Positions 136 through 13,857 of a DNA stretch of 64,000 nt are shown here, piece after piece. Every line of letters begins with the position of its first letter. The stretch's first letter is position 1. Below the pieces are notes generated by a model that was not told where the DNA came from, ran no database searches, and saw nothing but the letters and a program-made list of their open reading frames with translations. This DNA is from Anaerolineales bacterium (lineage in GTDB: Bacteria > Chloroflexota > Anaerolineae > Anaerolineales > UBA4823). The stretch spans positions 133,999-197,998 of the forward strand of contig PQAL01000037.1 of the NCBI GenBank assembly GCA_003105035.1, in the 5' to 3' direction. The position numbers and the translations under genes are program-made.

Positions 136-2763
136 ATGCTATCCCTCAAAGAATATCAACAGCGCGCCCTTGATAATCTACAGGCCTATTTTCGCCTCTC
201 TCTGCAGTTGGGTGACGCCGATACCGCTTTTTACCGCCTGACCCGCGAATCTTTTGGACACGGTATCCCCTATCAGCCGGTCGAAGGTCTCCCCGGGCTG
301 CCCTACGTCTGCCTGCGTATCCCCACCGGCGGTGGGAAGACGTTGGTAGCCAGCCACGCTATCGGTATCACCTCACACGACCTACTGCATACCGATCACG
401 CCCTGGTGCTCTGGCTGGCGCCATCAAACGTCATCCGCGATCAAACCCTGCGCGCCCTCTCAGACCCCAACCATCCCTACCGCCAGGCAGTAGAATCGCG
501 GGTGGGGCCTGTCACAGTGATGAACGTCAGCGATGCGCTGTACGTCCAGCCGGCTGTGCTCAACTCCAGCACGACCATCGTCGTCGGAACCATTCAGGCT
601 TTCCGGGTGGACAATACCGAAGGCCGCAAGGTGTACGAATCGTCCGGCGCGCTGATGAGCCACTTTACCGACCTCCCCACAGACTTGCAGGCCGGGCTGG
701 AAATGATAAATGGAGAGCCGAAGAAATCACTGGCGAACGTGCTCTACATGCGCCGCCCTATCGTCATCGTAGACGAAGCCCACAACGCCCGCACCCCGCT
801 TTCCTTCGAAACCCTAGCGCGCTTCCACCCCGCCTGCATCATCGAGTTCACCGCCACCCCAGCCACCCAAGACCATCCTTCCAATGTACTGCACTCCGCT
901 TCTGCTGCTGAATTGAAAGCGGAGGCGATGATCAAAATGCCCATTCGTCTAAAGGTACGCCCTCAGTGGAAGGAGCTGCTTTCGGACGCCATCGCCCAGC
1001 GCAACCGGCTGGAAGCCGCCGCTAGGCTGGAGCAGCGGCAGACCGGCGAGTACCTGCGCCCGATCGTGCTCTTACAGGCCCAACCTCGCAGCCAGAGCAA
1101 AGAGACGCTAACCGTAGAAGTCGTCCGACAGACGCTGCTCGACGATTTCAAGATCCCCGAAAGCCAGATCGCCCGCGCCACTGGTGACGTGGACGAAATC
1201 GGCGACACCGACCTCAGCCAACCGGACTGCCCCATACGTTACGTCATCACTGTCCAGGCGCTGCGCGAGGGCTGGGACTGCCCATTCGCCTACGTGCTTT
1301 GCTCAATTGCAGAGAGCAAATCCAGCACGGCGGTGGAGCAAATCCTGGGGCGCGTGCTGCGACTACCGAAAGCCACGCACAAAGAGATCGAACCCCTCAA
1401 CCTGGCTTACGCCTTTGCTACTTCAGAGAGTTTTGGTGTGGTGGCGAACCAATTGCGCGACAGCCTGGTGCAGAACGGCTTCGAACGCTACGAAGCTCAA
1501 ACGATGATCCAGACTCCACCCGAACAGATCGATTTACCGCTGTTTGGAGAAGGATCGGATTCTGCCTTGCCCGAACCGGCCACCATTGCCGTTCCTACTC
1601 CGCCAGCGTTAGAAGATATGCCCCTAGAAATCGGCGCGAAAGTTCAATACGACGTTACAACGCAGGCATTAGTGATCCGAGAGTGGCTTGAACCAGAGGA
1701 GGCTGCCTTACTGGTCGCCATGCTGCCCATCGCAGTTGTAGATACTGGCGTCCGGGCAGTCATCGACCGCGTTACCCGCCCGAATCCGCTACCGCCCACT
1801 GTATCTCCGGCTGAACGCGGCGAAGTACTGTATGTCCCGCAGCTTGTCCTGCGACGCGGCCAGCAGTTGGAGCTTTTCGAAGAAACTGCCTTCCTGGATT
1901 ATCCGTGGAATCTTTCCCAATGTGAAACCCTGCTGGCCGAAAGCGAATATTCCGGCCAGCGTCTGGGCGGAACCGAGATCGAGTACGACGTGACCGACAA
2001 GGGCAAGCTGAAAGAGCAATTCATCGAAGAGCTGCAGAACACCATGACGCTCTTTACTACCGATCAAGGCTGGACGCCGGCGGAGGTGGTCTACTGGCTC
2101 GACCACAACATCCCTCACACCGACGTTACCTTCCGTGAATCGAACGCTTTTCTCACCCGCCTGGTCATGTGCCTGATCGACGAGCGCAGCTTCACCCTAG
2201 ACCGGCTTGTCATGGACAAGTACCGCCTACGTGACGCTGTGGCAGCAAAGATTCAAGCGCACCGGCTCGAAGCACGCAAGCAAGCGTACAACCGATTCCT
2301 GCTGCCCGATTGTCAGACCCCACTGGAAGTGCATCCTGAAATTTGCTTCACCTATCCGCGCGACGCCTACCCCTACAACACGCTCTACCGCGGCGCGTAC
2401 CCATTCAAGAAGCACTATTATACCCAAGTCGGTGACCTGGAGGATCGGGGCGAAGAGTTCAATTGCGCTGTGTTCCTGGATAGCTTGTCAGATGTGAATG
2501 TCTGGGTGAGAAATCTTGAGCGCCGGCCCAATCACTCCTTCTGGCTGCAAACCTCCACGGATCGGTTCTATCCGGACTTCGTTTGTCTTCTGAATGACGG
2601 ACGCTACCTGGTGGTCGAATATAAGGGAGAAGACCGCTGGAGCAACGAGGATTCTAGGGAGAAACGGATCATTGGAGAGGTGTGGGCGAAAAGGAGCGAT
2701 GAGAAGTGCTTATTTGTGATGACGAAGGGACAGGAGTGGAATATTGTTAGGGAAGTTATATAA
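136..2763 (+). CDS. res: Type III restriction endonuclease Res subunit (SF2 helicase + PD-(D/E)XK nuclease)
   Basis: Walker A IPTGGGKT, DEAH box, LREGWDCP, QILGRVLR motif VI, C-terminal FYPDFV...VEYKG nuclease motif. Confidence 0.92.
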   Translation: MLSLKEYQQRALDNLQAYFRLSLQLGDADTAFYRLTRESFGHGIPYQPVEGLPGLPYVCLRIPTGGGKTLVASHAIGITSHDLLHTDHALVLWLAPSNVIRDQTLRALSDPNHPYRQAVESRVGPVTVMNVSDALYVQPAVLNSSTTIVVGTIQAFRVDNTEGRKVYESSGALMSHFTDLPTDLQAGLEMINGEPKKSLANVLYMRRPIVIVDEAHNARTPLSFETLARFHPACIIEFTATPATQDHPSNVLHSASAAELKAEAMIKMPIRLKVRPQWKELLSDAIAQRNRLEAAARLEQRQTGEYLRPIVLLQAQPRSQSKETLTVEVVRQTLLDDFKIPESQIARATGDVDEIGDTDLSQPDCPIRYVITVQALREGWDCPFAYVLCSIAESKSSTAVEQILGRVLRLPKATHKEIEPLNLAYAFATSESFGVVANQLRDSLVQNGFERYEAQTMIQTPPEQIDLPLFGEGSDSALPEPATIAVPTPPALEDMPLEIGAKVQYDVTTQALVIREWLEPEEAALLVAMLPIAVVDTGVRAVIDRVTRPNPLPPTVSPAERGEVLYVPQLVLRRGQQLELFEETAFLDYPWNLSQCETLLAESEYSGQRLGGTEIEYDVTDKGKLKEQFIEELQNTMTLFTTDQGWTPAEVVYWLDHNIPHTDVTFRESNAFLTRLVMCLIDERSFTLDRLVMDKYRLRDAVAAKIQAHRLEARKQAYNRFLLPDCQTPLEVHPEICFTYPRDAYPYNTLYRGAYPFKKHYYTQVGDLEDRGEEFNCAVFLDSLSDVNVWVRNLERRPNHSFWLQTSTDRFYPDFVCLLNDGRYLVVEYKGEDRWSNEDSREKRIIGEVWAKRSDEKCLFVMTKGQEWNIVREVI

Positions 2764-2885: not shown

Positions 2886-4853
2886 ATGAAACTTCAAGAG
2901 ACTCAGAATCGAATTAGAGACTTGCTATCATTATTTGTGACAATGATTAAAGCAGATACCGCTATGGGCAGGCAGGATTTGAATAAAATCGCGGAAAATT
3001 TGTTAATACCTATTTTCGCCCTAACTTTTGATTATCAATCTTTAGAGAATCTGAACTTTTCGGAGGGTGGAAATTTCCCTGCCATAGATCTCGGTGATAA
3101 GACGGCACGTGTTGCGGTTCAAGTAACAGCAACCACAGATAGCGAAAAAATAAAATATACGCTTTGTAAATTCGTTGAGTTCGAGCTCTATAAAGAATAT
3201 GACCGTTTGATTATCTATATCTTGAGTGAAAAGAAATCATATTCTGGTAAGGGTTTTGACGGAATTATTCAGGGTAAATTCACTTTCAACAAAGAACAAG
3301 ATATTTGGGATTACAGAGAGATCCTCACCAAAGTTGCTGAATTTCAGATTCAAAAAGCAGTACAAATCCTGGATATTTTGGAACAAAATATATCCAGTAG
3401 GGCAGGGAGAACTCCATATGACCACAGAAACACAATCTTTCTTAGCTCCTTACAGTTAGAGGAAGAAGATTTTGTTCGATGGTTAGCATTTAAGCTCATC
3501 TCAGCTGGATATTCTGTATGGTGCACCCCACTCAATAAAAAAGGCGGAGATGATCTTAATCAACAGACACAAGCAATTATTGAACGAACAACTGCTTTAT
3601 TTCTTTATATTGTTACGCCTAGGACGAACACTGATCCGGCATCGCTTGCAGAACTCCAAAAAGCCTATGACATTATGAGAAGGGATCAGCTGGATGGTTT
3701 CATCGTACCTTTGCTTCTAGATACATCATCGCTTAGCTCAATAAACATTCTTTTAAAAGGACTCCAACCGATTACTTTTTATGATAGTTGGGCTAAAGGA
3801 TTAAGCGATTTACTCAAGGTATTGGAAGAGCGCGATTTTCCGAAAGATGCATCGTTGTCACCAAATACTGCAAATATCCTGTGGCGACAGCAATTTGAAC
3901 CAGAGCGAGGAATAATAAGCAAAGAAGAGGAATATCTTTCTAACTGGTTCCCTATCACCCTCCCAGAATATATCTATTTTCATGAACTTCAGCGAAGTAG
4001 CACTGGTCCAATCGAAATAAGAAAAAACTTACCATTTCCTGGTTTTCAGCATAATATATACCTCGTTTCATTTGCAGAAGCAGATGATTTTCAAGGCCAA
4101 CTCGGAACATATATATCAATAAAATCTTCTAATCCTATTTCAATCACGAATTATCTAGATGAAGAATACGACCCGAAATTGGTAAATCCTGATCTCTCTT
4201 GGCGTTTTGTAATACAGTTATTGCAGCAAACGTGGGAGAGGTACATGTATCAAAAAGGATTAGGCATGTACCAGTTAGCAAACGGAAAGAATGCTTATTA
4301 TTTTCAAAGGGGTTTTAGTGAAAAGAGGATATCATTTATCGGGACAGATGGTAATATAACGAGCCGGGCATTATCTGGCTATAAAACAGTAAAGCTATCC
4401 ACCGAGGAGAAAGTTAAGAGATATTGGTTGTTCGGGATATCTGGGAAGCCAATACTGTACCCCTTTCACGCTTATGTGATTAAGGCACATGTTGTCTTCA
4501 GTGACGATGGGTACCAAATCTGGAAAAGTAAATCCAGGCTTCATCGAGCTCGAAGAAGTTGGTGTTCTGACTGGTGGAACGATGATTGGCGGGATCGATT
4601 GTTAGCAAGTCTATCATGGCTCAGCAACAACCAACCATCGTTACAATTGCCGGTTGCAAAAAACACTAATCTTGTCGTTGAACGTCATTCGGCTGATTTT
4701 CGAAGCCCTGTTACCTATAACGATCCTAATACTGATTTACCTCAGACTAAAAACGAAGTAAATGATGATCTTGATGAAGTGGAAGGAGAAGAATTCAATC
4801 TTGAAAACGATGATTCTTTATTGGACGACGAGGAAGAATTAGATGACGAATAA
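2886..4853 (+). CDS. SMEK-TIR-APAZ effector, partner of short prokaryotic Argonaute
   Basis: aa ~1-170 SMEK-like (AENLL..LENLN..NFPAIDLGDK..AVQVT). aa ~181-320 TIR (RNTIFLS..FVRWLAFKLISAGYSVWC..LAELQKA). C-terminal APAZ (EEYLSNWF..WWNDDWRDRLLA) with acidic tail. Overlaps the pAgo start by 11 bp. Confidence 0.88.
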   Translation: MKLQETQNRIRDLLSLFVTMIKADTAMGRQDLNKIAENLLIPIFALTFDYQSLENLNFSEGGNFPAIDLGDKTARVAVQVTATTDSEKIKYTLCKFVEFELYKEYDRLIIYILSEKKSYSGKGFDGIIQGKFTFNKEQDIWDYREILTKVAEFQIQKAVQILDILEQNISSRAGRTPYDHRNTIFLSSLQLEEEDFVRWLAFKLISAGYSVWCTPLNKKGGDDLNQQTQAIIERTTALFLYIVTPRTNTDPASLAELQKAYDIMRRDQLDGFIVPLLLDTSSLSSINILLKGLQPITFYDSWAKGLSDLLKVLEERDFPKDASLSPNTANILWRQQFEPERGIISKEEEYLSNWFPITLPEYIYFHELQRSSTGPIEIRKNLPFPGFQHNIYLVSFAEADDFQGQLGTYISIKSSNPISITNYLDEEYDPKLVNPDLSWRFVIQLLQQTWERYMYQKGLGMYQLANGKNAYYFQRGFSEKRISFIGTDGNITSRALSGYKTVKLSTEEKVKRYWLFGISGKPILYPFHAYVIKAHVVFSDDGYQIWKSKSRLHRARRSWCSDWWNDDWRDRLLASLSWLSNNQPSLQLPVAKNTNLVVERHSADFRSPVTYNDPNTDLPQTKNEVNDDLDEVEGEEFNLENDDSLLDDEEELDDE

Positions 4854-6363
4854 TCTCCTTTTTATTGAAGAGCCGAAGCTATTATTTGGGCATGGACAAA
4901 GTGTCGAAGATCCACGCGATGGCTTGATTCTTTTTGGCCCCTTGGAAAAAGGAAAACCATACGGAGTTCATTATGGAATCATTGGAACACAGGAAGGGAT
5001 AAGAAGGTTTAGAAGTTGGGCAGAACGTCTGAATCAACCCATTCATGATAGCAAGAAGAGTATTGCGAGGCCTCCTTTTTTAGGTTTCGAAACAATATTT
5101 GATACTCCCTGGTCATTAAGTCCTGACTTAGAGCTGGTAATACCGACTGAAGATTTATTCAAGGCAATTTATCTAGATGATAAATACCAAAGGGTTTATA
5201 AGACCGTTGAATTATATTCTTCACGAATTATCAGGGCAATAAGTGAAGAAGAAACTAAAGTTGATATATGGTTTGTTATAGTGCCTGATGAAGTCCATAA
5301 GTATTGCCGACCAAAATCTATTATTGATGTGACAAAACTAATGCAAGCTGACACAAAGATGGACCCAAAATATGCACGGAGTTTACGGACACAGCCCTCT
5401 CTACTTTTTCAAGACGATAATATCAACGCAATTCCATACCAGTATGAAGTGAATTTCCACAATCAGCTAAAAGCTAGGTTATTAGACAAACTCGTCCTAA
5501 CTCAGATTGTTCGAGAAAGCACAATTGCCCCGGGTGAGCTGCTGGATAGATTTGGACGTCCGGCTAGAGGCATGGATAAATTACAAGCATCTGCAGCGTG
5601 GAATATTTGCACCGCTGTATTTTACAAAATCGGTGGAAGACCCTGGAAAATAAGCGGAATACGTGAAGGAGTTTGCTATATTGGTTTAGTATTTAAAAAA
5701 ACGATGGATTCTTCAAACGCTGATAATGCATGTTGTGCTGCTCAAATGTTTTTAGATTCTGGTGATGGTATTGTTTTTAGAGGAGATGTTGGGCCTTGGT
5801 ACAATCCAGACAAAGGAGATTATCATCTGAAACGGAAGGCTGCTCATGAACTAATTGAAATCGCTGTAAATACTTACAAAAGATACTTCAATAAGCCCCC
5901 AGACGAATTATTTATTCATGGAAAAGTTGAATTTAACTCGGAAGAATGGCAGGGTTTTCAGGATGCGGCCGATGATAAGGATACAAACTTAGTCGGAGTA
6001 AAAATACAAGATAGCAACGAGATAAAACTCTTTCGAAAATCGGATCACCCTATCCTGAGAGGATTAGCTTACATTCGCAGTAAGCGGTCAGCATATTTAT
6101 GGACAAGAGGTTATATCCCACGTTTACAAACATATCCTGGTCTAGAAGTACCCAACCCTCTTTATATCAAAATCTGTAGAGGCCAAGCTGATATTGAAAT
6201 AGTACTTCAGGATATCCTTGCTCTTACAAAGTTAAATTACAATGCCTGTGTTTATGCGGATGGTGTTCCAGTTACGCTAAAATTTGCAGATGCAGTCGGT
6301 GAAATCTTAACAGCGGGGCCAATCAAAGGAGATGTACCTTTGCCTTTTCGTCACTATATTTAA
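4843..6363 (+). CDS. ago: Short prokaryotic Argonaute (MID-PIWI, catalytically inactive), SPARTA-type
   Basis: 506 aa. IEEPKLLFGHGQ..DPRDGLILFGP start, MID FHNQLKARLL / TQIVRESTI, YKIGGRPWK, CYIGLVFKK, ACCAAQMFLDSGDG, LTKLNYNAC..PVTLKFAD, C-terminal PLPFRHYI. No DEDX tetrad. Confidence 0.95.
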   Translation: MTNNLLFIEEPKLLFGHGQSVEDPRDGLILFGPLEKGKPYGVHYGIIGTQEGIRRFRSWAERLNQPIHDSKKSIARPPFLGFETIFDTPWSLSPDLELVIPTEDLFKAIYLDDKYQRVYKTVELYSSRIIRAISEEETKVDIWFVIVPDEVHKYCRPKSIIDVTKLMQADTKMDPKYARSLRTQPSLLFQDDNINAIPYQYEVNFHNQLKARLLDKLVLTQIVRESTIAPGELLDRFGRPARGMDKLQASAAWNICTAVFYKIGGRPWKISGIREGVCYIGLVFKKTMDSSNADNACCAAQMFLDSGDGIVFRGDVGPWYNPDKGDYHLKRKAAHELIEIAVNTYKRYFNKPPDELFIHGKVEFNSEEWQGFQDAADDKDTNLVGVKIQDSNEIKLFRKSDHPILRGLAYIRSKRSAYLWTRGYIPRLQTYPGLEVPNPLYIKICRGQADIEIVLQDILALTKLNYNACVYADGVPVTLKFADAVGEILTAGPIKGDVPLPFRHYI

Positions 6364-6580: not shown

Positions 6581-6620
6581 CGGTTTACAAATTGTTATAA
6601 ATATGCTATAATGTAAACCG
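6581..6620 (+). promoter_or_regulatory. Sigma70-type promoter flanked by a 9-bp inverted repeat (probable XRE operator)
   Basis: TTTACA (6584-6589), 17 bp, TGn-TATAAT (6607-6612). CGGTTTACA / TGTAAACCG arms overlap both boxes. RBS AGGAGG at 6633-6638. Confidence 0.75.
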
Positions 6621-6643: not shown

Positions 6644-7696
6644 ATGACCATCGGTCAGCGCATTAAACAAGCTCGCAAGGCGAATGCTCTGAGCTTACGA
6701 AGATTGTCGGAAAAGGCTGAGATCAGCGCGATGGCAATCTCGAAGTATGAACGGGATCTGGATACGCCCAGTTCAGGTGTATTGCTACGCTTGGCGTCGG
6801 CACTCAGTGTCTCAATTGACACCTTTTTCCGTCCACAGACGATATCGGTTCAGCTCCAAGCCTATCGCAAACATGCTGCATTGGGTGTGAAAGAGCAAGA
6901 AGCTGTCCAAATGCGGATCCAAGAATGGTTGGAAAGATATTTGGAAGTCGAAAGCTTTTTCCCAAATGAAGGACGGGCGATTTCTCTGCCAATATATTCG
7001 ATACACTCGATAGAACAGGTGGAAGATGTTGCCTTAGAACTGCGCGGAAACTGGAATCTGGGCTTAGATCCAATAGAGAACCTTACCCAACTGCTTGAAG
7101 ATCAGGGAATCAAAGTTGGAATAGTCCCTGGATTTGAGCATTTCGATGCCAGTACGTTTTTAGCAAACGGAGCTCCTGTAATTGTCTCAAAGGCTGAGTT
7201 ACCCGGTGACCGGCAACGTTTCAATTTGTGTCACGAATTAGGCCACCTGATCTTGAACGTCAATGAAACGCTTGATCCAGAAGCTGTCTGCCATCGGTTT
7301 GTTGGGGCCTTTATTGCCCCAGCACAGGCAGTCCGCTTCGAGTTGGGTGCCCGACGCACTATGCTAGACATAAATGAGCTACTTCTGCTCAAACATAAGT
7401 ATGGACTTAGCATGCAAGCATGGATTTTCCGGGCAAGAGACTTAGGAATCATCTCGGAGAGTATAGCTGCACGACTTTTCCACCATTTTCGAGCAAATGG
7501 CTGGCACCGGCGTGAGCCTGGTGAGCCAATACCCAGTGAAAAGCCCTTACGTATGGAGCGATTGATATTTCGCGCCTTAGCCGAAGATTTGATATCACAC
7601 TCCAAAGCACAAGAGTTGCTTGGTGAGCCCTTACAAATGCCCTGGGTGATGGAGGCAATGCAACAGGATGACGTTGCAGTCGGTTCTGGTCACTGA
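6644..7696 (+). CDS. XRE-family HTH fused to ImmA/IrrE (M78) metallopeptidase
   Basis: N-terminal IGQRIKQARK..ISKYERD HTH, and RQRFNLCHELGH HExxH motif. Confidence 0.9.
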   Translation: MTIGQRIKQARKANALSLRRLSEKAEISAMAISKYERDLDTPSSGVLLRLASALSVSIDTFFRPQTISVQLQAYRKHAALGVKEQEAVQMRIQEWLERYLEVESFFPNEGRAISLPIYSIHSIEQVEDVALELRGNWNLGLDPIENLTQLLEDQGIKVGIVPGFEHFDASTFLANGAPVIVSKAELPGDRQRFNLCHELGHLILNVNETLDPEAVCHRFVGAFIAPAQAVRFELGARRTMLDINELLLLKHKYGLSMQAWIFRARDLGIISESIAARLFHHFRANGWHRREPGEPIPSEKPLRMERLIFRALAEDLISHSKAQELLGEPLQMPWVMEAMQQDDVAVGSGH

Positions 7697-8162
7697 CACA
7701 AATATCTGGGTTGACCTTGAAAATGGCGGCGTTCTGGTCGAGGTCTTCCAACTGCCCTATCAGTTTTTGATACCTGACTTTGCAATTTCCGAGCTTCTTC
7801 ATCCAAGGTGGGAGACTCTGGAAGTATTAGGTCTTCGAGCACACGAACTACCAGGTGAAGAAGTAATTGAGCTATTCCAATTAAGACAGGTCCATAAAAA
7901 CCTCTCAATTATTGATTTGTCAGCTTACTTACTTGCTAAAATGCTGGATGCAACACTCCTGACCGGTGACTGGCACATTAGCGAATTAGCCATTGCCAGC
8001 GGTCTTTCAGTGCACGGTGTCCTCTGGTTATTGGATGAGATGGTACATTTCAAGGCTCTTACACCAACGCAAGCCGTTACGGCCCTCAAACGGATGCTCA
8101 AATTAGGTGCAAGACTACCTGCCGAGGAATGTAATATCCGATTAACGAGATGGTCGATATGA
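7668..8162 (+). CDS. PIN-domain protein (putative toxin RNase)
   Basis: VLVTDTNIWVDL, LSIIDLSAYLLA..LLTGD acidic PIN motifs. Overlaps the upstream gene. Confidence 0.8.
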   Translation: MTLQSVLVTDTNIWVDLENGGVLVEVFQLPYQFLIPDFAISELLHPRWETLEVLGLRAHELPGEEVIELFQLRQVHKNLSIIDLSAYLLAKMLDATLLTGDWHISELAIASGLSVHGVLWLLDEMVHFKALTPTQAVTALKRMLKLGARLPAEECNIRLTRWSI

Positions 8163-8468: not shown

Positions 8469-9404
8469 TTAACAATCGTCCAATTCACCTATCGCATTTG
8501 CTAAATCCTCTTCTCCCGGTGTTGTATAAATCCTGGTTGTATTCAAGTTGCAATGCCCCAACAGTGCCGCGACCTTTTCCAGAGATACGTCTGCATCGAT
8601 CAATGCTTTTGCAAAACTATGCCGTAAGGTATGGGGAGTAATGTTCTTCAACCCAGCTTTCTTCGCAAAGCGCTGTACAGCTCGCTGAACCGTCTTGCTC
8701 TGCACACCATCATTTCGTTGACTAAGAAAGAGATCATTTTTCTCCGTGTCTGGCCTCATATGCAAATAATCGAGTAAAGCCTTTCGTGCTTTTGAATTCA
8801 ACGGGATCTCCCGCCGTTTCGTTCCCTTCCCCTCTCTGACGACCACACTCCCCTTGCGCTCATCCAGAATAATATCGCTCACGCGCAATTGGATAATCTC
8901 ACCCACACGCAGCCCAGCAAATAAAATCAGTTTGACAATAGCTGCATCCCTTAAGTACATTAATCGTAGGCGCGGGTAACAGCGCATAGCATCTTCAACT
9001 TCCTTATCCACTGCACGAAGTAAGGCTGCACGTTGCTTCTTATCCAGCCATTTCGGAGCCAGTGCCACCTCTTTCACCGCCTTAACTCCTTGCACCGGGT
9101 TACGACCATTCTTGACATATCCAGCCTGCTCTAACCAGTGGGCATATACTGCTAGAGCTGCGAGCCGCCGGTTGATCGTCTTGGGCTTATTGGCCTGGTC
9201 AAGTAGATATTGCTTGTATCCTCTCACGGCATCGTTTGTTAAACCTTCAGGAGTCAGTGACTCTCGGTTCTGCTTTTCGAACCACTGCGCGAACAGACAC
9301 ACATCCCCGGTATACCCCACGATTGTCACCGGCGAGCGATCCTCTGCAAGTAGATAAGCCCGAAATTCATCCAGATGCAGGTCGTCTATCATTTTTATAT
9401 CCAT
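8469..9404 (-). CDS. Tyrosine recombinase (XerC/D-like integrase or resolvase)
   Basis: AGLRVGE (R), GKGTKRR (K), TPHTLRHSFA (HxxR), LLGHCNLNTTRIY (H, Y). N-terminal SAM-like domain. Confidence 0.92.
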   Translation of the reverse strand: MDIKMIDDLHLDEFRAYLLAEDRSPVTIVGYTGDVCLFAQWFEKQNRESLTPEGLTNDAVRGYKQYLLDQANKPKTINRRLAALAVYAHWLEQAGYVKNGRNPVQGVKAVKEVALAPKWLDKKQRAALLRAVDKEVEDAMRCYPRLRLMYLRDAAIVKLILFAGLRVGEIIQLRVSDIILDERKGSVVVREGKGTKRREIPLNSKARKALLDYLHMRPDTEKNDLFLSQRNDGVQSKTVQRAVQRFAKKAGLKNITPHTLRHSFAKALIDADVSLEKVAALLGHCNLNTTRIYTTPGEEDLANAIGELDDC

Positions 9405-9509
9405 CCTTCTTTGTTCGTGTTTACCCTATTCAGGGTGATTTTTATTCCGCATGACCTGATATAGCCATTTGCTTTGTTGCGAAGCTCCTGGGCCTTCCTG
9501 GTGGCTTAA

Positions 9510-9602
9510 AGGACGTCCTATCTCAGCAAATGCAGTATTTGGTAGGACGCCCTAATAGGACGTCCTTATAGGACGCCCCATCTTTTTCCATAGGACGCCC
9601 TA
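9510..9602. repeat. Array of five AGGACG(T/C)CC quasi-palindromes; candidate parS centromere
   Basis: Copies at 9510, 9544, 9557, 9570 and 9592. Three have an exact 13-bp period. AGGACGTCCT is a perfect palindrome. Directly downstream of parA-RHH. Confidence 0.7.
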
Positions 9603-10022
9603 TCGCGGACCATTTTCACCATTTCGGAGAACCTCCTCGGCGTGTCGGTTGAGGTCGATATTCCACTCAAATTTCCTGCAGCCAGAGGACGCCTTGTAGC
9701 CCCACAAGCTGATCATGCGTGTCTCCAACCGGAGCACCGGTTCATAAAGCAAGAAGGCAACCAACTGGCTGACCGGCACACCTTCTTTCTTGGCCAGGAT
9801 CTCCAGGCGCTTTTTTAAGTCGACCGGCAGTTCCAGGTTGACCCGCTTTGCCAAGCGCTTCTGTGCTCGCTCCCGTTCTTTCTTTCGCTGAGAGCGCAGG
9901 TTTTTCGGTAGGTGAGATTCGACGTTGCGGCGCGCTCCCTGGTCCAACAGGGACTCGACGGCTGGGTCGATACCGGGAAGATCGTCAAAACCGGTGAAGC
10001 CTTGCTTGCTCGTGTTTTTCAT
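9600..10022 (-). CDS. Ribbon-helix-helix protein, probable ParA partner (ParG-like)
   Basis: KRVNLELPVDLKKRLEILAKKEGVPVSQLVAFLL RHH pattern after a flexible basic N-terminus. Overlaps the parA stop by 4 bp. Confidence 0.65.
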   Translation of the reverse strand: MKNTSKQGFTGFDDLPGIDPAVESLLDQGARRNVESHLPKNLRSQRKKERERAQKRLAKRVNLELPVDLKKRLEILAKKEGVPVSQLVAFLLYEPVLRLETRMISLWGYKASSGCRKFEWNIDLNRHAEEVLRNGENGPR

Positions 10023-10792
10023 ATCAGCTCCTGGATGCGTTCTAAAACTTGAATGTATCCACCGATACGCCTATTGCCCTGGTCATAACCAGTCAGGGCT
10101 TTGGCGTTCGGTTCGTAATCCCACAGGGTCTTCCCGAAACGACTAGCAACCCTACATTGGGTATCCTGTGGGATAGGCGGCAGCACAAGCTTTCCAAAGG
10201 TTTGTGCCAGGTGGATGAGTTGGTCATGGCTCTCCAAGGTTACCCGCTCGTAGAAAGTCGGGAGGATGCCCGCCACTTGGCAATGGCTGATCCGCTTCAG
10301 CGCCGCCAGGGTTTGTAAGGCATCCCTCACACCATTGACCGCCAGTTTGTCCAGGCGGGTGGGGATTAGCAGATAATCGGCAGCGACGATTGCTGCAAAG
10401 TGCAGTAGATCCACGGAGGGGGCGCAGTCGAGGGCGATCACATCATAGTCTGAACCTTGCAATACATCCGCTAGGATATATTCCCGCAGAGTCACGCCTG
10501 CGAGGGTTTGCTTCAAGGAGGTTGTGCTCTTGTCGGAACGGATGATTGCTAGGCGGTCCAACCCACTTGGGGTGATTGCCTGATCAAGCGGAATGTGTAG
10601 ATCGGGAGAGAGAAGGCGACGGAGATCGTCACCGTGAGGCAATCCCAGGCTATCAGCAACGTTTCCTTGGGTATCCAGATCGACTAGAAGCAAATGGTAT
10701 CCCATTCTGGCTAGACCTGAGGCCAGCGTGACCGCGGTAGTCGTTTTACCCACTCCGCCTTTCTGATTCAGGATTGCGAAGATTGTTGGCAT
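10019..10792 (-). CDS. parA: ParA/Soj-family ATPase
   Basis: NQKGGVGKTTT deviant Walker A, LVDLDTQGN, ALDCAPS. Confidence 0.92.
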   Translation of the reverse strand: MPTIFAILNQKGGVGKTTTAVTLASGLARMGYHLLLVDLDTQGNVADSLGLPHGDDLRRLLSPDLHIPLDQAITPSGLDRLAIIRSDKSTTSLKQTLAGVTLREYILADVLQGSDYDVIALDCAPSVDLLHFAAIVAADYLLIPTRLDKLAVNGVRDALQTLAALKRISHCQVAGILPTFYERVTLESHDQLIHLAQTFGKLVLPPIPQDTQCRVASRFGKTLWDYEPNAKALTGYDQGNRRIGGYIQVLERIQELI

Positions 10793-10942
10793 ATAACCTC
10801 CTTGAATTTAGTTTTCATATTGACCTACTGTCTAGCTCCACAAATCATGAGGTATATCCAGCAAATCATCAGTGTCAGCATCCTCATTGCCTTGGGAGAG
10901 CAACTGGGTGAACAGCCACTGCTGTTCAGTGGGCATTTGCAG

Positions 10943-11275
10943 TCAGAGATCGGTTTCTTCGGTTTTCCTCGAGTGAGCATCCGGGTCATCAATCCACCTG
11001 CTGGAGACGAACTCATGGTATGCTCGCCCAATCCGGATCAGCCGCCGGGCGATGAGATACATAGCCAGAACGAACAGCACCGCGAAGGCTAATGTCACCA
11101 ATAGCAGAATCAGGGTTTGAGCGCGGCTTATGTCGCTGACACCCTGGTTAGCTAGTTGAGCTGTTCGCGTTGTTTCGAAAATGCGCGGAGCCTGGGCGGT
11201 ACCCACCGCGTTGCCTCTTGACCCATAGGCAACCAGCACAGGTATAATCAGGATGAAGAATCCGATCTTTTTCAT
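10943..11275 (-). CDS. Hypothetical membrane protein
   Basis: Signal-like N-terminus MKKIGFFILIIPVLVAYG plus one TM helix. RBS AGAGGTG upstream of the ATG at 11275. Confidence 0.55.
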   Translation of the reverse strand: MKKIGFFILIIPVLVAYGSRGNAVGTAQAPRIFETTRTAQLANQGVSDISRAQTLILLLVTLAFAVLFVLAMYLIARRLIRIGRAYHEFVSSRWIDDPDAHSRKTEETDL

Positions 11276-11304
11276 GTCACACCTCTGTGATTTTGAATGA
11301 ACCA

Positions 11305-13395
11305 TTAATAACCAGTATCAGGAACAGGTATGCCCAGCTGATCCGCTAACGTTCGCAAGCGATCTCGTGGCCCGCCTTCCATTGCTTTCCGCCAAGCCTG
11401 ATCCCAGGGACTTTGTCCAGCCAATTCCCTGGTCAGCATGTCTGCCAGCTCACTGGCTGGTAATTTAGCAAGCTTATCCAGAGCACCTCCCGCGCCGTGA
11501 GTTGGATCAGGAATCAGGCGGCTAACAGCATGTGCGATGGGATCACGTATCCCAACGCCCGCCAGGCTGGCTGAATAGAGAAGCCAGGAAACAAATGACT
11601 GAGCATTGAGGCTGTTTTCCATGAGCATTTCCTGGTTTTTTACACCTACCCGGTTTCGAGAGAGTAATTCTGACAAATTCCATTCTGCGCCTACCACCCC
11701 CTTCTCATGCCTAGCGAAGGGGTCCGCAAGGTCAGATTTAATGCCGTCACCGGCGGTGGTTGGAGTATTTTTCTTGGGAGTTAAACCAAGCGCTAAGGTA
11801 TTTAAACTGTGCCACTCGCGCCAATCAAAGGTGACAGCTGCGCCATTCTTATGAGTGTCATTCCCGCCAAGAGATGTACCATTCGCGCCAACAGGAGTGT
11901 CAATCGCGCCAATATAGGTGCTAACTGCGCCAACGGGAGCGTTGATCGTTTCACTGCTAATGGTGTCAGATTCGCCTTTATGGGTGTCAACCGCGCCAAT
12001 AACGCTATCGGTTCGTTTATCCCTAATAGTGTCATTTGCGCCAAAGCCTCTCTTGGCTAACATTCCATTTGCCCGTATCCGGTCTTCCTCAGTCATCGGC
12101 TCACCCAAGCAAACTTTGAAGCGGCGTGGCGATTCTTCCCAATCATCGATCTCATGCCTTATCTCGCGAACAAACCGGGCGACATCATCAATACGAAGCC
12201 ATTCCCAAATGGTTTTGACGCGTTTCAAACCCAACCAGTCAGCAATCTCTGAATAACCCTGGTCTACCAGAGCTTCATCCCGGATTTCGCCTGTACGTGG
12301 GTTTAGGTAACATCGATCGCGGATCAGCACCACGAACCATCCCTGCCCATGACCTAATTTAGGCAACCATCGGGTTACGAAGTAGTGCGTCAGGAAGACC
12401 AGGTCTCTGGGAGGCATCAGGTGTTGCGCCAGCTGATCAGCGAGTTCCTGGAAGTGCGACCGGTCGTTTTCCGATATCGGACCACACACGGCATGCAATA
12501 CATCTTGGACTGAATGGAGTTCGATGCTTCCATCTCTATATGATGGTGTGTTCTCATGTCGTGGGATCAGCTCATCCACCGGGATTTCTAAAGCATCCTG
12601 GAGCGCTGCAAGTGGGTTTTTTCCTTCAGCCAGACTCTTGTAAAGCCAGGCGCGGAGAGAAAGCTCGTCGGCTGGAGTTAGGGGGAGGGTCATCGCCACC
12701 CGGTAGTAGCGAGGTGTCCGGTGGGGGTGATTGTCATTTCCATATTGCCACTGGGGTTTATCCTCAGCAGGTGTAACCAGATCGCGTAAGCGCTGCCATG
12801 TATCGGGGTTTGCAGAGTACCGCCGGAAGGTGCGCAGGCTCATCCCAGAGTACCTAGCTACGTTCTTCGCTGGAGCGCCAAACATCTTACCGGGCTGCTT
12901 GGCTGCACCAGCTTCGTAAGCTGCCTGGCGAAAGCCAATGTACAGCCAGGCCAGATCCAAACCAAGCACCGAAATGAACCGGAGAAAGTATCCAGGAACG
13001 ACGATCACCTGGTGGGGCTGGACGATCTCATCGTAAATCGACTGGTATTCCGCCTGAAGCGAGAGCACAGCTGGATCTTCCATGGGAGCCGAATTTTCGT
13101 CCTCATGGGGCTTTTCGATCCCGTCTTCACTCGTTTCTTCTACAACAATGAATCGAACCTCCACCTTTTGGTTCAAGATCCCGATCAGCAAGCGGGTGAA
13201 GGTACTGGTCAGGCGGCTGGCGAGCCACTCGCGGCCATACTCATTCGGTGTGCCCACGGTGAATATTCCCTCTTCAAAGGAGATAAAGCTTGCATCCTGT
13301 ACCCAGGTATCAAAAGAGGATTTCGGCATATCTAATCGCAGCTGATCGAGGGTTATTTGCAAGGCTTTCTCTGGGCTAAATGATGCACCTTTCAT
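11305..13395 (-). CDS. Putative replication initiator with N-terminal DnaA domain I and two wHTH-like modules
   Basis: LDQLRLDMPKSSFDTWVQD..VGTPNEYGREWLASRL is DnaA_N-like. Duplicated YF...LG...W modules. Internal 7-aa repeats. Sits between xis and parA. Confidence 0.7.
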   Translation of the reverse strand: MKGASFSPEKALQITLDQLRLDMPKSSFDTWVQDASFISFEEGIFTVGTPNEYGREWLASRLTSTFTRLLIGILNQKVEVRFIVVEETSEDGIEKPHEDENSAPMEDPAVLSLQAEYQSIYDEIVQPHQVIVVPGYFLRFISVLGLDLAWLYIGFRQAAYEAGAAKQPGKMFGAPAKNVARYSGMSLRTFRRYSANPDTWQRLRDLVTPAEDKPQWQYGNDNHPHRTPRYYRVAMTLPLTPADELSLRAWLYKSLAEGKNPLAALQDALEIPVDELIPRHENTPSYRDGSIELHSVQDVLHAVCGPISENDRSHFQELADQLAQHLMPPRDLVFLTHYFVTRWLPKLGHGQGWFVVLIRDRCYLNPRTGEIRDEALVDQGYSEIADWLGLKRVKTIWEWLRIDDVARFVREIRHEIDDWEESPRRFKVCLGEPMTEEDRIRANGMLAKRGFGANDTIRDKRTDSVIGAVDTHKGESDTISSETINAPVGAVSTYIGAIDTPVGANGTSLGGNDTHKNGAAVTFDWREWHSLNTLALGLTPKKNTPTTAGDGIKSDLADPFARHEKGVVGAEWNLSELLSRNRVGVKNQEMLMENSLNAQSFVSWLLYSASLAGVGIRDPIAHAVSRLIPDPTHGAGGALDKLAKLPASELADMLTRELAGQSPWDQAWRKAMEGGPRDRLRTLADQLGIPVPDTGY
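11809..12044. repeat. Nine imperfect 16-bp direct repeats GTGTCA-N3-GCGCCAA (iteron-like) inside the Rep gene
   Basis: Copies start at 11809, 11831, 11855, 11876, 11897, 11918, 11963, 11984 and 12029. Several are spaced exactly 21 bp. Confidence 0.8.
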
Positions 13396-13400
13396 GGCCG

Positions 13401-13649
13401 CTATCGACCGCTCGCTTTCCGATCGGCAACAGATTTGTTATAACCGTTCTTATTCAGAAACTTTCCAACGGCATCTTCTGGGACACGGAAAGTGCGAGGG
13501 CCGAATTGAATGGCTTCGAGATTGCCATCCTTGATCCAACGATAAACGGTTTTCGGGTGGACGCGTGCCCATTCTGCAACTTCGAGCACTGTGAGCAAGT
13601 TCCTGGCATTCCAGGTGCTCGACGGTGGGTGGACAGATTGTGTTGTCAT
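13401..13649 (-). CDS. xis: Excisionase-family HTH DNA-binding protein
   Basis: LLTVLEVAEWARVHPKTVYRWIKDGNLEAIQFGPRTFRVPED, a classic MerR-like Xis pattern. RBS GGGAGA upstream. Confidence 0.85.
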   Translation of the reverse strand: MTTQSVHPPSSTWNARNLLTVLEVAEWARVHPKTVYRWIKDGNLEAIQFGPRTFRVPEDAVGKFLNKNGYNKSVADRKASGR

Positions 13650-13682
13650 CTCATTTTCTCCCACCGGCTTTTCGGGAGAATC

Positions 13683-13738
13683 AAAAAGCCGGCTCTCAAT
13701 CTGACTTGTCAAACATAGGTTCAGATCGAGAGCCGGCT
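13683..13738 (-). terminator. Intrinsic terminator downstream of tRNA-Ser
   Basis: 18-bp stem AGCCGGCTCTCGATCTGA / TCAGATTGAGAGCCGGCT (one G-U pair) followed by a T run on the minus strand. Confidence 0.75.
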
Positions 13739-13769
13739 AATAATTACTTTTAGCTCACTTTACGCTCTG

Positions 13770-13857
13770 CGGAGAGGGTGGGATTCGAACCCACGGTGGG
13801 GACGAGCCCCACAACGGTTTTCGAGACCGTCCCATTCAACCACTCTGGCACCTCTCC
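13770..13857 (-). tRNA. tRNA-Ser(CGA)
   Basis: Reverse complement GGAGAGGTGCCAGAGTGGTTGAATGGGACGGTCTCGAAAACCGTTGTGGGGCTCGTCCCCACCGTGGGTTCGAATCCCACCCTCTCCG. Anticodon CGA, long variable arm, G discriminator, CCA not encoded. Confidence 0.96.

What the first reader, a model, noticed from the sequence alone, without database searches (positions are those of the whole stretch)
2886..6363. Short Argonaute system with a three-domain SMEK-TIR-APAZ effector
Seen: a 506-aa MID-PIWI Argonaute lacking the DEDX tetrad, overlapping by 11 bp with an upstream 655-aa protein. Residues ~181-655 of that protein follow the TIR-APAZ layout of SPARTA, but ~180 extra residues precede the TIR and carry the SMEK-family signature (AENLL..LENLN..NFPAIDLGDK..AVQVT). 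Known: canonical SPARTA uses a ~450-aa TIR-APAZ, and guide/target binding drives oligomerisation and NAD(P)+ depletion. SMEK-type domains occur in other defence effectors and resemble the restriction-endonuclease fold. Mrr-TIR-APAZ fusions have been noted, but I do not know of a characterised SMEK-TIR-APAZ. Inference: a guide-programmed abortive-infection system with two outputs (DNase plus NADase), or one where TIR assembly switches on the SMEK domain.
Basis: partly seen in the sequence, partly recalled or inferred. Interest (0 to 1): 0.92.

Follow-up and report, generated by a model that had tools for sequence, protein, structure and literature searches.

The report
Argonaute nuclease mounted on dead TIR
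This two-gene bacterial Argonaute defence system carries a predicted DNA-cutting domain in front of its usual NAD-destroying (TIR) domain, which has lost key conserved residues and is likely inactive, so it likely kills infected cells by cutting DNA; its relatives carry four other kinds of toxic domain at the same spot.

Summary
Confirmed: a 655-aa SMEK-TIR-APAZ gene overlaps a 506-aa short Argonaute gene by 11 bp. SMEK is predicted to have an Mrr-like PD-(D/E)XK nuclease fold and matches the Kordia SPARMA nuclease domain.

The 'two outputs' reading is probably wrong. The TIR keeps its catalytic Glu but lacks W46, G73 and H9 (each kept in 91 of 91 unfused relatives) and carries a natural R54E, a change that abolishes NADase activity in SPARTA. 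The protein belongs to one APAZ clade (31 fused proteins) with an eroded TIR and a swappable N-terminal effector: SMEK, Cap4, HNH-like, TIR or SEFIR-like. Nine unrelated fusions to other domains keep the TIR largely intact. The published Mrr-TIR-APAZ group has a different nuclease family, and its TIR lacks the catalytic Glu (0 of 5).

Best model (0.65): guide/target binding dimerises the Argonaute and switches on the SMEK nuclease, with TIR as a non-catalytic mount. Against: the closest relative keeps W46, G73 and E77, and no activity was measured.

New variant of a known kind; interest 0.66.

The parts
2886..4853 (+). SMEK-TIR*-APAZ effector gene, 655 aa (TIR* = eroded TIR)
2886..3410 (+). 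SMEK domain (aa 1-175), predicted Mrr-like PD-(D/E)XK nuclease; putative active-site E37, D68, Q79, T81, K88
   Evidence: Pfam/NCBIfam; PDB 26bh match; D68, Q79, K88 invariant and E37, T81 at least 90% kept in 27 SMEK domains; model pLDDT 92.6; fold hits
3426..3845 (+). Eroded TIR domain (aa 181-320): E256 (=E77), G221 (=G42), D223 (=D44) kept; H9>S188, T11>Q190, F45>L224, W46>N225, R54>E233, G73>A252, Y105>L283, R114>G292
   Evidence: alignment to 8j8h_B
3918..4721 (+). APAZ region (aa 345-612), intact: 29 of 31 conserved columns kept, including N353 (=N174)
4743..4850 (+). Acidic C-terminal tail (19 of 36 residues D/E), likely autoinhibitory as in SPARTA
   Evidence: function from PMC10899771 (passages)
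4843..6363 (+). Short MID-PIWI pAgo, 506 aa, clade S2A; MID H206/K210/Q221/K262; dimer-interface positions Y40, E136, E137, D141, Y261 and K395 kept; no DEDX
136..2763 (+). Neighbour: type III restriction Res subunit (its N6-methylase Mod gene lies just upstream, C37:132547-134130)
6644..8162 (+). Neighbours: HTH + IrrE/ImmA-type peptidase gene (6644-7696) and PIN-like gene (7668-8162)
8469..13857 (-). Integrative-element module: tyrosine integrase (8469-9404), ParA-like ATPase (10019-10792), DnaA_N-bearing protein (11305-13395), HTH_17 protein (13401-13712), tRNA-Ser (13769-13857)

Best explanation
This is a SPARTA-lineage short Argonaute system whose TIR domain has lost key conserved residues and is likely inactive, so it likely serves as a mount for the N-terminal SMEK domain, which is predicted to be the real effector, a DNA-cutting nuclease. 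Shown: operon, domains, residue losses, clade structure and effector swapping. Inferred from SPARTA work: pAgo and effector form a heterodimer, the acidic tail blocks the channel, a 5'-phosphate RNA guide binds in the MID pocket, and ssDNA target binding causes pAgo-pAgo dimerisation. Inferred from other nuclease effectors (DREN, HNH, Cap4): clustering lets SMEK domains form an active oligomer that degrades DNA non-specifically and stops the infected cell. Whether the active state is a dimer, tetramer or filament is open.
For: TIR erosion: in 127 aligned relatives (91 unfused, 31 fused, 5 fragments dropped) W46 is kept in 91/91 vs 1/31, G73 in 91/91 vs 1/31, H9 in 91/91 vs 11/31, R54 in 64/91 vs 0/31, R114 in 68/91 vs 1/31; both R54 and R114 are missing in 6/91 vs 30/31. 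The window protein keeps 19 of 32 conserved TIR columns but 29 of 31 APAZ columns. R54E and R114E abolish NADase in vivo and W46E reduces it (PMC10899771, passages); T11A, F45A, W46A, Y105A, R54A and R114Q impair it (PMC10474274, passages). The fused proteins are one side of one branch in APAZ-only trees (SH-aLRT 98, 95 and 89) and 5 of their pAgos likewise (99). Five effector kinds sit on this scaffold: Cap4 11, SEFIR-like TIR 9, SMEK 5, HNH-like 5, TIR 1, with their own motifs intact; 10 of 31 gained a second TIR/SEFIR-type domain, and 8 of 11 Cap4 forms lost E77 itself. Control: 9 fusions outside the clade keep E77 9/9, R54 9/9, H9 9/9, W46 8/9, G73 7/9. The eroded TIR is under purifying selection like APAZ (dN/dS 0.14-0.17 vs 0.12-0.16 in 3 pairs of relatives). 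SMEK: best fold hits include the N-terminal domain of LlaBIII (Z 8.3, rmsd 3.6, 129 aligned), N.BspD6I, FokI and the N-terminal domain of Avs4; Kordia SMEK-APAZ was reported to have weak collateral DNase activity (as cited in PMC12205087). pAgo guide pocket and dimer residues are kept.
Against: E256 (=E77) is kept here and in 23 of 31 fused proteins, in all 5 SMEK forms of the first set. The closest relative P0003 keeps W46, G73, E77, R114 and 27 of 32 TIR columns, so at least one SMEK fusion may still be an NADase. T11, R54, Y105 and R114 also vary among unfused relatives, so those losses weigh less. SMEK has Q-x-T where Mrr enzymes have Q-x-K (Mrr motif recalled), the fold scores are middling and Foldseek gave no hit at E<=0.001. 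No activity was measured. The trees are quick searches without bootstrap on sequences gathered by likeness to the query, and clade members are not independent.
Confidence: 0.65

Rival explanations
1. Dual output: the TIR still hydrolyses NAD+ through a remodelled pocket or interface, and SMEK adds DNA cleavage.
For: E77, G42, D44 and I110 equivalents kept; purifying selection on the TIR; P0003 keeps most of the signature; REase-TIR-APAZ proteins were proposed to act as double effectors (PMC10810196, passages).
Against: W46, G73 and H9, invariant in 91 of 91 unfused relatives, are lost; natural R54E; 8 of 11 Cap4 forms and 5 of 5 Mrr_cat forms lack E77.
Confidence: 0.13
2. The TIR has changed chemistry rather than died: it keeps the Glu and makes or binds a nucleotide signal that gates SMEK.
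For: E77 kept in all 20 SMEK, HNH-like, TIR and SEFIR-like forms of the first set; a new shared motif around the old pocket in the largest subclade; dN/dS under 0.2.
Against: The nicotinamide-stacking F45/W46 are gone and position 46 is highly variable across the clade; the Glu is lost in most Cap4 forms; the window's own pocket residues differ from the subclade motif.
Confidence: 0.08
3. TIR-TIR contacts, rebuilt on new surfaces, are still what assembles the active oligomer, and the TIR is a signalling-type scaffold rather than a passive mount.
For: The TIR fold is retained in all 31 fused proteins and is under selection; G42 is kept in 29 of 31; non-enzymatic scaffolding TIRs exist (PMC10899771, passages).
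Against: Both known tetramer residues R54 and R114 are missing in 30 of 31; no conserved replacement surface was identified.
Confidence: 0.09
4. The system is decaying or SMEK is not a nuclease, so the locus gives little or no defence.
For: One Cap4-type relative has an insertion-sequence-like element in its TIR (L025); SMEK nuclease activity rests on one report of weak activity; the APAZ region was found in only 1 of 401 genomes of the class.
Against: Both ORFs are whole; APAZ, tail, MID pocket and SMEK motifs are kept; the same fusion occurs in five other proteins at 42-49% identity for the three scored full-length; selection is purifying in relatives.
Confidence: 0.05

Closest known systems
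SPARTA (short pAgo + TIR-APAZ, clade S2A; Koopal 2022, PMC9097488)
   Same: Operon order, S2A pAgo with HKQK-type MID pocket and dimer residues, APAZ, acidic tail, TIR fold and E77.
   Different: Extra 175-aa SMEK domain; TIR lacks W46, F45, H9, T11, G73, R54, R114; predicted output is DNA cleavage, not NAD+ depletion.
Mrr-TIR-APAZ subclade of S2A (Koopal 2022; PADLOC PDLC02416 REase-TIR-PNTD1-PNTD2)
   Same: Nuclease-TIR-APAZ layout of about 640-650 aa before a short pAgo; its TIR is also eroded (H9 0/5, E77 0/5).
   Different: Its nuclease is Mrr_cat (PF04471) with no BLAST match to SMEK; TIR-APAZ identity to the window is only 23-27%; it keeps W46 and loses E77, the reverse of this clade; it falls elsewhere in the best tree, though a shared origin is not rejected (AU p 0.26).
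SPARMA / SMEK-APAZ (Kordia jejudonensis, clade S2B; PDB 26bh)
   Same: Same SMEK effector family with the same motif residues; 50-57% identity to SMEK domains of SMEK-APAZ proteins.
   Different: There SMEK is joined directly to an S2B APAZ without TIR; here it sits on an S2A TIR-APAZ with an S2A pAgo.
SPARDA and SPARHA (DREN- and HNH-APAZ)
   Same: Guide-triggered nuclease effector activated by oligomerisation: the functional model for this system.
   Different: Clade S2B, no TIR, shown to form filaments; filament formation here is untested.
Lamassu LmuA effectors (PMC12663957)
   Same: A conserved scaffold with swappable N-terminal effectors including SMEK, Cap4, HNH and Mrr.
   Different: SMC-type sensor, not a guide-loaded Argonaute; the scaffold is not a former enzyme domain.

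Membership tests
SPARTA (S2A) | Short MID-PIWI pAgo without DEDX | tested here: met
   (tetrad positions from recalled motifs)
SPARTA (S2A) | Co-encoded TIR-APAZ protein directly upstream | tested here: met
SPARTA (S2A) | TIR catalytic Glu77 | tested here: met
   E256
SPARTA (S2A) | TIR NAD-binding pocket (T11, F45, W46, Y105) and invariant H9, G73 | tested here: not met
   Q190, L224, N225, L283, S188, A252; roles
SPARTA (S2A) | TIR tetramer interface R54 and R114 | tested here: not met
   E233, G292; roles; both also missing in 6 of 91 unfused relatives
SPARTA (S2A) | Guide/target-triggered NAD(P)+ hydrolysis and tetramer formation | not testable with these tools
   needs biochemistry
Mrr-TIR-APAZ subclade | N-terminal Mrr_cat domain (IPR007560; its mapping to PF04471 is recalled) | tested here: not met
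   No Mrr_cat hit at E<=0.1; PDLC02416 covers only aa 172-630 here but the full length of 3 of 3 plasmid Mrr proteins scanned
Mrr-TIR-APAZ subclade | Same APAZ lineage | tested here: inconclusive
   Separate in the best tree; AU test does not reject one clade, p 0.258
SPARMA / SMEK-APAZ (S2B) | SMEK ('Mrr-like') effector domain | tested here: met
SPARMA / SMEK-APAZ (S2B) | SMEK fused directly to an S2B-type APAZ | tested here: not met
   PDLC02399 matches aa 1-173 only but the full length of 7 SMEK-APAZ proteins
PD-(D/E)XK (Mrr-like) nucleases | Restriction-endonuclease fold | tested here: met
   Best Z 8.3, rmsd 3.6, 129 aligned; many restriction-type nucleases among the top rows; scores middling
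PD-(D/E)XK (Mrr-like) nucleases | Canonical catalytic set E...D...(Q/E)xK | tested here: inconclusive
   E37, D68, Q79 conserved; T81 stands in place of K, and K88 is invariant nearby; canonical motif recalled
PD-(D/E)XK (Mrr-like) nucleases | Metal-dependent DNA cleavage | not testable with these tools
   needs biochemistry

The most novel reading that the evidence does not exclude
A SPARTA lineage has turned its TIR enzyme into a plug-in socket: one Argonaute-APAZ-TIR* sensor drives any of at least five toxic domains (SMEK, Cap4, HNH-like, TIR, SEFIR-like), and the same conversion happened separately in the Mrr-TIR-APAZ group, so 'double-effector' short Argonautes are in fact effector-replacement systems.
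Probability: 0.5. Interest if true: 0.8.

Novelty: new variant of a known kind. Interest (0 to 1): 0.66.

Why it matters
It changes how three-domain SPARTA effectors should be read: not two weapons at once, but an enzyme domain kept as structure after a new weapon was added. The clade shows, in one family, how a programmable sensor changes its output, and makes this directly testable with a few point mutants. If the scaffold accepts several natural effectors, it is a candidate chassis for guide-programmed nucleic-acid detection with a choice of read-out. It also gives a second setting in which to work out the SMEK domain, a common defence effector whose activity rests on thin evidence.

Tried and rejected
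Full-length AlphaFold2 with 5 rows failed (pLDDT 38.5) and was not used, so the position of SMEK relative to TIR is unknown. Foldseek of the SMEK model gave no hit at E<=0.001; 26bh did not appear in either fold search. The SMEK four-copy complex job gave no answer and is not used either way. No RNA holder was listed. Promoter and terminator scans found no more than chance (7 vs 12.5 expected; 3 vs 2.8). No att-site repeat of the tRNA-Ser region was found in the genome, so the element's left end is not mapped. Internal start near aa 180: rejected. Assembly chimera: rejected. 'Any N-terminal fusion erodes the TIR': rejected by 9 fusions outside the clade. P0110 (109-aa extension, intact TIR) was counted as unfused because the extension looks like a mis-called start and it groups with unfused proteins; counted as fused, W46 would be 2 of 32. 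The SMEK-only tree was unresolved for the window protein, so no donor is named. dN/dS for the window itself was saturated or nearly so. The genome-contig scan gave only 4 loci, none with a fused effector. The supplements of PMC9097488 held no list of Mrr-TIR-APAZ proteins that my terms could find, so the plasmid proteins are taken as that group from Pfam and PADLOC. Three look-ups of earlier scan findings returned nothing.
Full report
Observation. The first has SMEK_N at aa 9-150 (E 8e-43) and TIR_2 at 185-309; aa 180-638 match solved SPARTA TIR-APAZ chains. The second is a short S2A pAgo (PADLOC pAgo_I E 1e-203; SPARTA chains E about 1e-165). Contigs from two studies cross the SMEK/TIR junction with no differing letters, though two of the runs may be this DNA's source. 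No plausible in-frame start lies near aa 180. The two genes are about 39% G+C against 51% for the genome and 57% for the upstream gene. They sit after a type III restriction-modification pair and before an HTH-peptidase/PIN pair, an integrase, a ParA-like gene and tRNA-Ser. Further upstream lie two Schlafen AlbA_2 genes, a DUF4365 gene and a TIR gene. This looks like a defence island on an integrative element (inference). A pAgo match was found in 4 of 401 genomes of the phylum and an APAZ match in 1 of 401 of the class, the window's own genome included.

The SMEK domain. Residues 13-167 match PDB 26bh, the 'Mrr domain' of the Kordia jejudonensis system (E 4e-24). A model from 27 rows is confident (pLDDT 92.6). 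Its best structural matches among 48,161 chains include the N-terminal domain of LlaBIII (Z 8.3, rmsd 3.6, 129 aligned), N.BspD6I (7.2), FokI (7.0), the N-terminal domain of Avs4 (6.8), NucC, MspJI and AspBHI, mixed with helical-bundle noise; Foldseek found nothing at E<=0.001. D68, Q79 and K88 are invariant and E37 and T81 at least 90% kept in 27 SMEK domains. The same domain occurs at about 50-57% identity in SMEK-APAZ proteins and on STAND/TPR proteins, so it is a mobile effector. Kordia SMEK-APAZ is reported to have weak collateral DNase activity (PMC12205087, passage citing Kim 2020, which I did not see).

The TIR is eroded. Numbered on the alignment to 8j8h_B (first Met taken as residue 1), the window keeps E77, G42, D44 and I110 but has H9S, T11Q, F45L, W46N, R54E, G73A, Y105L and R114G. 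In SPARTA, R54E and R114E abolish NADase in vivo and W46E lowers it (PMC10899771, passages); T11A, F45A, W46A, Y105A, R54A and R114Q impair it (PMC10474274, passages). I aligned 127 relatives: 91 unfused, 31 with a real N-terminal domain, 5 fragments dropped. Unfused vs fused: W46 91/91 vs 1/31; G73 91/91 vs 1/31; H9 91/91 vs 11/31; R54 64/91 vs 0/31; R114 68/91 vs 1/31; E77 91/91 vs 23/31. Of columns conserved in at least 90% of unfused proteins the window keeps 19 of 32 in TIR and 29 of 31 in APAZ, so the loss is specific to the TIR. T11, Y105, R54 and R114 vary among unfused proteins too, so W46, G73 and H9 carry the argument.

A clade with swappable effectors. In an APAZ-only tree of 126 rows the 30 fused proteins with enough APAZ (plus 2 fragments) form one group (SH-aLRT 98). 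Two other samples gave 95 and 89. Five pAgos from fused loci group at 99 among 25. The N-terminal domains are Cap4 nuclease (11), SEFIR-like TIR (9), SMEK (5), HNH-like (5; weak in Pfam, E 5e-16 to a SAVED-HNH profile for the one scanned in PADLOC) and TIR (1), and their own motifs look intact. In the tightest subclade SMEK, HNH-like and SEFIR-like forms are interleaved on near-identical APAZ regions. Six of 80 metagenome loci belong to the clade, and in all six a pAgo gene starts right behind the effector (two cut by contig ends). A sixth SMEK form, P0152, came from the 50% representative search. The eroded TIR is not drifting: dN/dS is 0.14-0.17 against 0.12-0.16 for APAZ in three pairs among L010, L012 and L013.

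Controls. Among 150 representatives, 135 with a whole TIR, nine fusions outside the clade (two DprA/SLOG, one 2H-phosphoesterase-like, six to a DUF488-like lead) keep E77 9/9, H9 9/9, R54 9/9, W46 8/9 and G73 7/9. The 119 unfused keep W46 114/119 and E77 118/119; the seven clade members, labelled after inspection, keep W46 0/7 and E77 4/7. Fusion alone therefore does not erode the TIR. I then looked at 11 of 34 plasmid hits. Five are 640-650 aa proteins with an Mrr_cat-type N-terminus (Pfam E 4e-6 to 9e-3 in the 4 scanned, two above the cut-off; full-length PDLC02416 match in the 3 scanned), i.e. the published Mrr-TIR-APAZ type. Their TIR lacks H9 and E77 in 5 of 5 but keeps W46, whereas six unfused plasmid proteins keep all three. 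Their nuclease shows no match to SMEK. They fall apart from the window's clade in the best tree, but the AU test does not reject a common origin (p 0.258).

Mechanism. The pAgo keeps the MID residues H206/K210/Q221/K262 and the dimer-interface positions Y40, E136, E137, D141, Y261 and K395; K504/Y505 read R503/H504, a site that varies in unfused systems too. APAZ N353 (=N174) and the acidic tail are kept. I infer that sensing works as in SPARTA up to pAgo-pAgo dimerisation, and that the output has moved to SMEK, activated by clustering as shown for HNH, DREN and Cap4 effectors (PMC12738770, bioRxiv 2025.04.08.647717, PMC12663957; passages). The TIR would be a mount that conveys the rearrangement. 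Confidence 0.65. Against it: E77 is kept in all SMEK forms, the closest relative P0003 (49% identity) keeps W46, G73, E77 and R114, and nothing was assayed. Rivals are dual output (0.13), rebuilt TIR-TIR scaffold (0.09), changed TIR chemistry (0.08) and a decaying locus (0.05).

What is in print. Koopal 2022 notes one Mrr-TIR-APAZ subclade (PMC9097488, passages). [quoted passage not shown] A SPARDA preprint places SMEK in clade S2B and (Mrr-)TIR in S2A (bioRxiv 2023.06.08.544223, passages). Ryazansky 2018 and the SPARSA preprint were read as passages and add nothing on this. Ten searches (one search listed 20 of 44 hits) showed no paper on a SMEK-TIR-APAZ system, on Cap4-, HNH- or SEFIR-TIR-APAZ, or on an inactive TIR in such fusions. 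The library lacks most subscription papers, figures were not seen, preprint supplements are closed, and the paper behind PDB 26bh was not found, so this is not proof of absence.

Verdict. Real feature; new variant of a known kind. It is SPARTA by descent but fails the TIR pocket and interface tests, and likely works like the nuclease-type short Argonautes. The architecture alone is a modest novelty, since nuclease-TIR-APAZ is already noted. The finding worth following is the clade-wide conversion of the TIR into a mount for interchangeable effectors. Interest 0.66.

Noticed in passing
L091:1946-3871, L092/L093:1937-3886, L094:1946-3874, L098:346-2268: The Mrr_cat-TIR-APAZ proteins on alphaproteobacterial plasmids lack the TIR catalytic Glu and the SHA motif (5 of 5), so the published 'double-effector' type is likely a nuclease-only system too.
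   Followed up: partly
proteins P0252, P0254, P0259, P0269, P0274, P0279: TIR-APAZ proteins with an intact TIR and an unannotated ~180-aa N-terminal domain; Atlas leads (score 0.80-0.84, under the 0.9 mark) point to DUF488.
   Followed up: partly
proteins P0228, P0263, P0155: DprA/SLOG-TIR-APAZ fusions (two, apart in the tree) and a 2H-phosphoesterase-like TIR-APAZ fusion, all with an intact TIR.
   Followed up: no
proteins P0006 (aa ~170-190; locus L011:3437-5509) and P0151 (aa 1-43): A Gly/Asn/Ile-rich segment that recalls RHIM-type amyloid motifs (recalled resemblance) lies between the outer and inner TIR of P0006; its close relative P0151 has only such a segment and no effector in front of its eroded TIR.
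   Followed up: no
L025:5161-8594: A Cap4-TIR*-APAZ gene interrupted in the TIR by a ~1.2-kb element with a transposase-like ORF; an uninterrupted near-copy is in L014.
   Followed up: partly
L013:3764-5383: A second SEFIR-like TIR gene directly follows the pAgo of a SEFIR-TIR*-APAZ locus.
   Followed up: no
window 3405-3459: An out-of-frame ATG at 3418 with a purine-rich stretch upstream lies at the SMEK/TIR junction, five bases before the R-N-T-I-F start of the TIR; possibly a relic of the former gene start, possibly chance.
   Followed up: no
window 6644-8162: HTH + IrrE/ImmA peptidase gene with a PIN-like partner and a near-consensus sigma-70 site at 6584-6612 (11 of 12); could be a toxin-antitoxin or regulatory pair.
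   Followed up: no
L102 (G000:C37:120159-134130): Upstream island genes: two Schlafen AlbA_2 proteins, a 535-aa DUF4365 protein, a TIR protein, and a PDZ/GAF histidine kinase, polyprenyl-synthetase-like gene and LuxR response regulator trio.
   Followed up: partly
protein P0284: An unfused 447-aa TIR-APAZ whose TIR lacks W46, G73 and E77, the only one of 119 without the Glu; its effector may be encoded separately or it may be broken.
   Followed up: no
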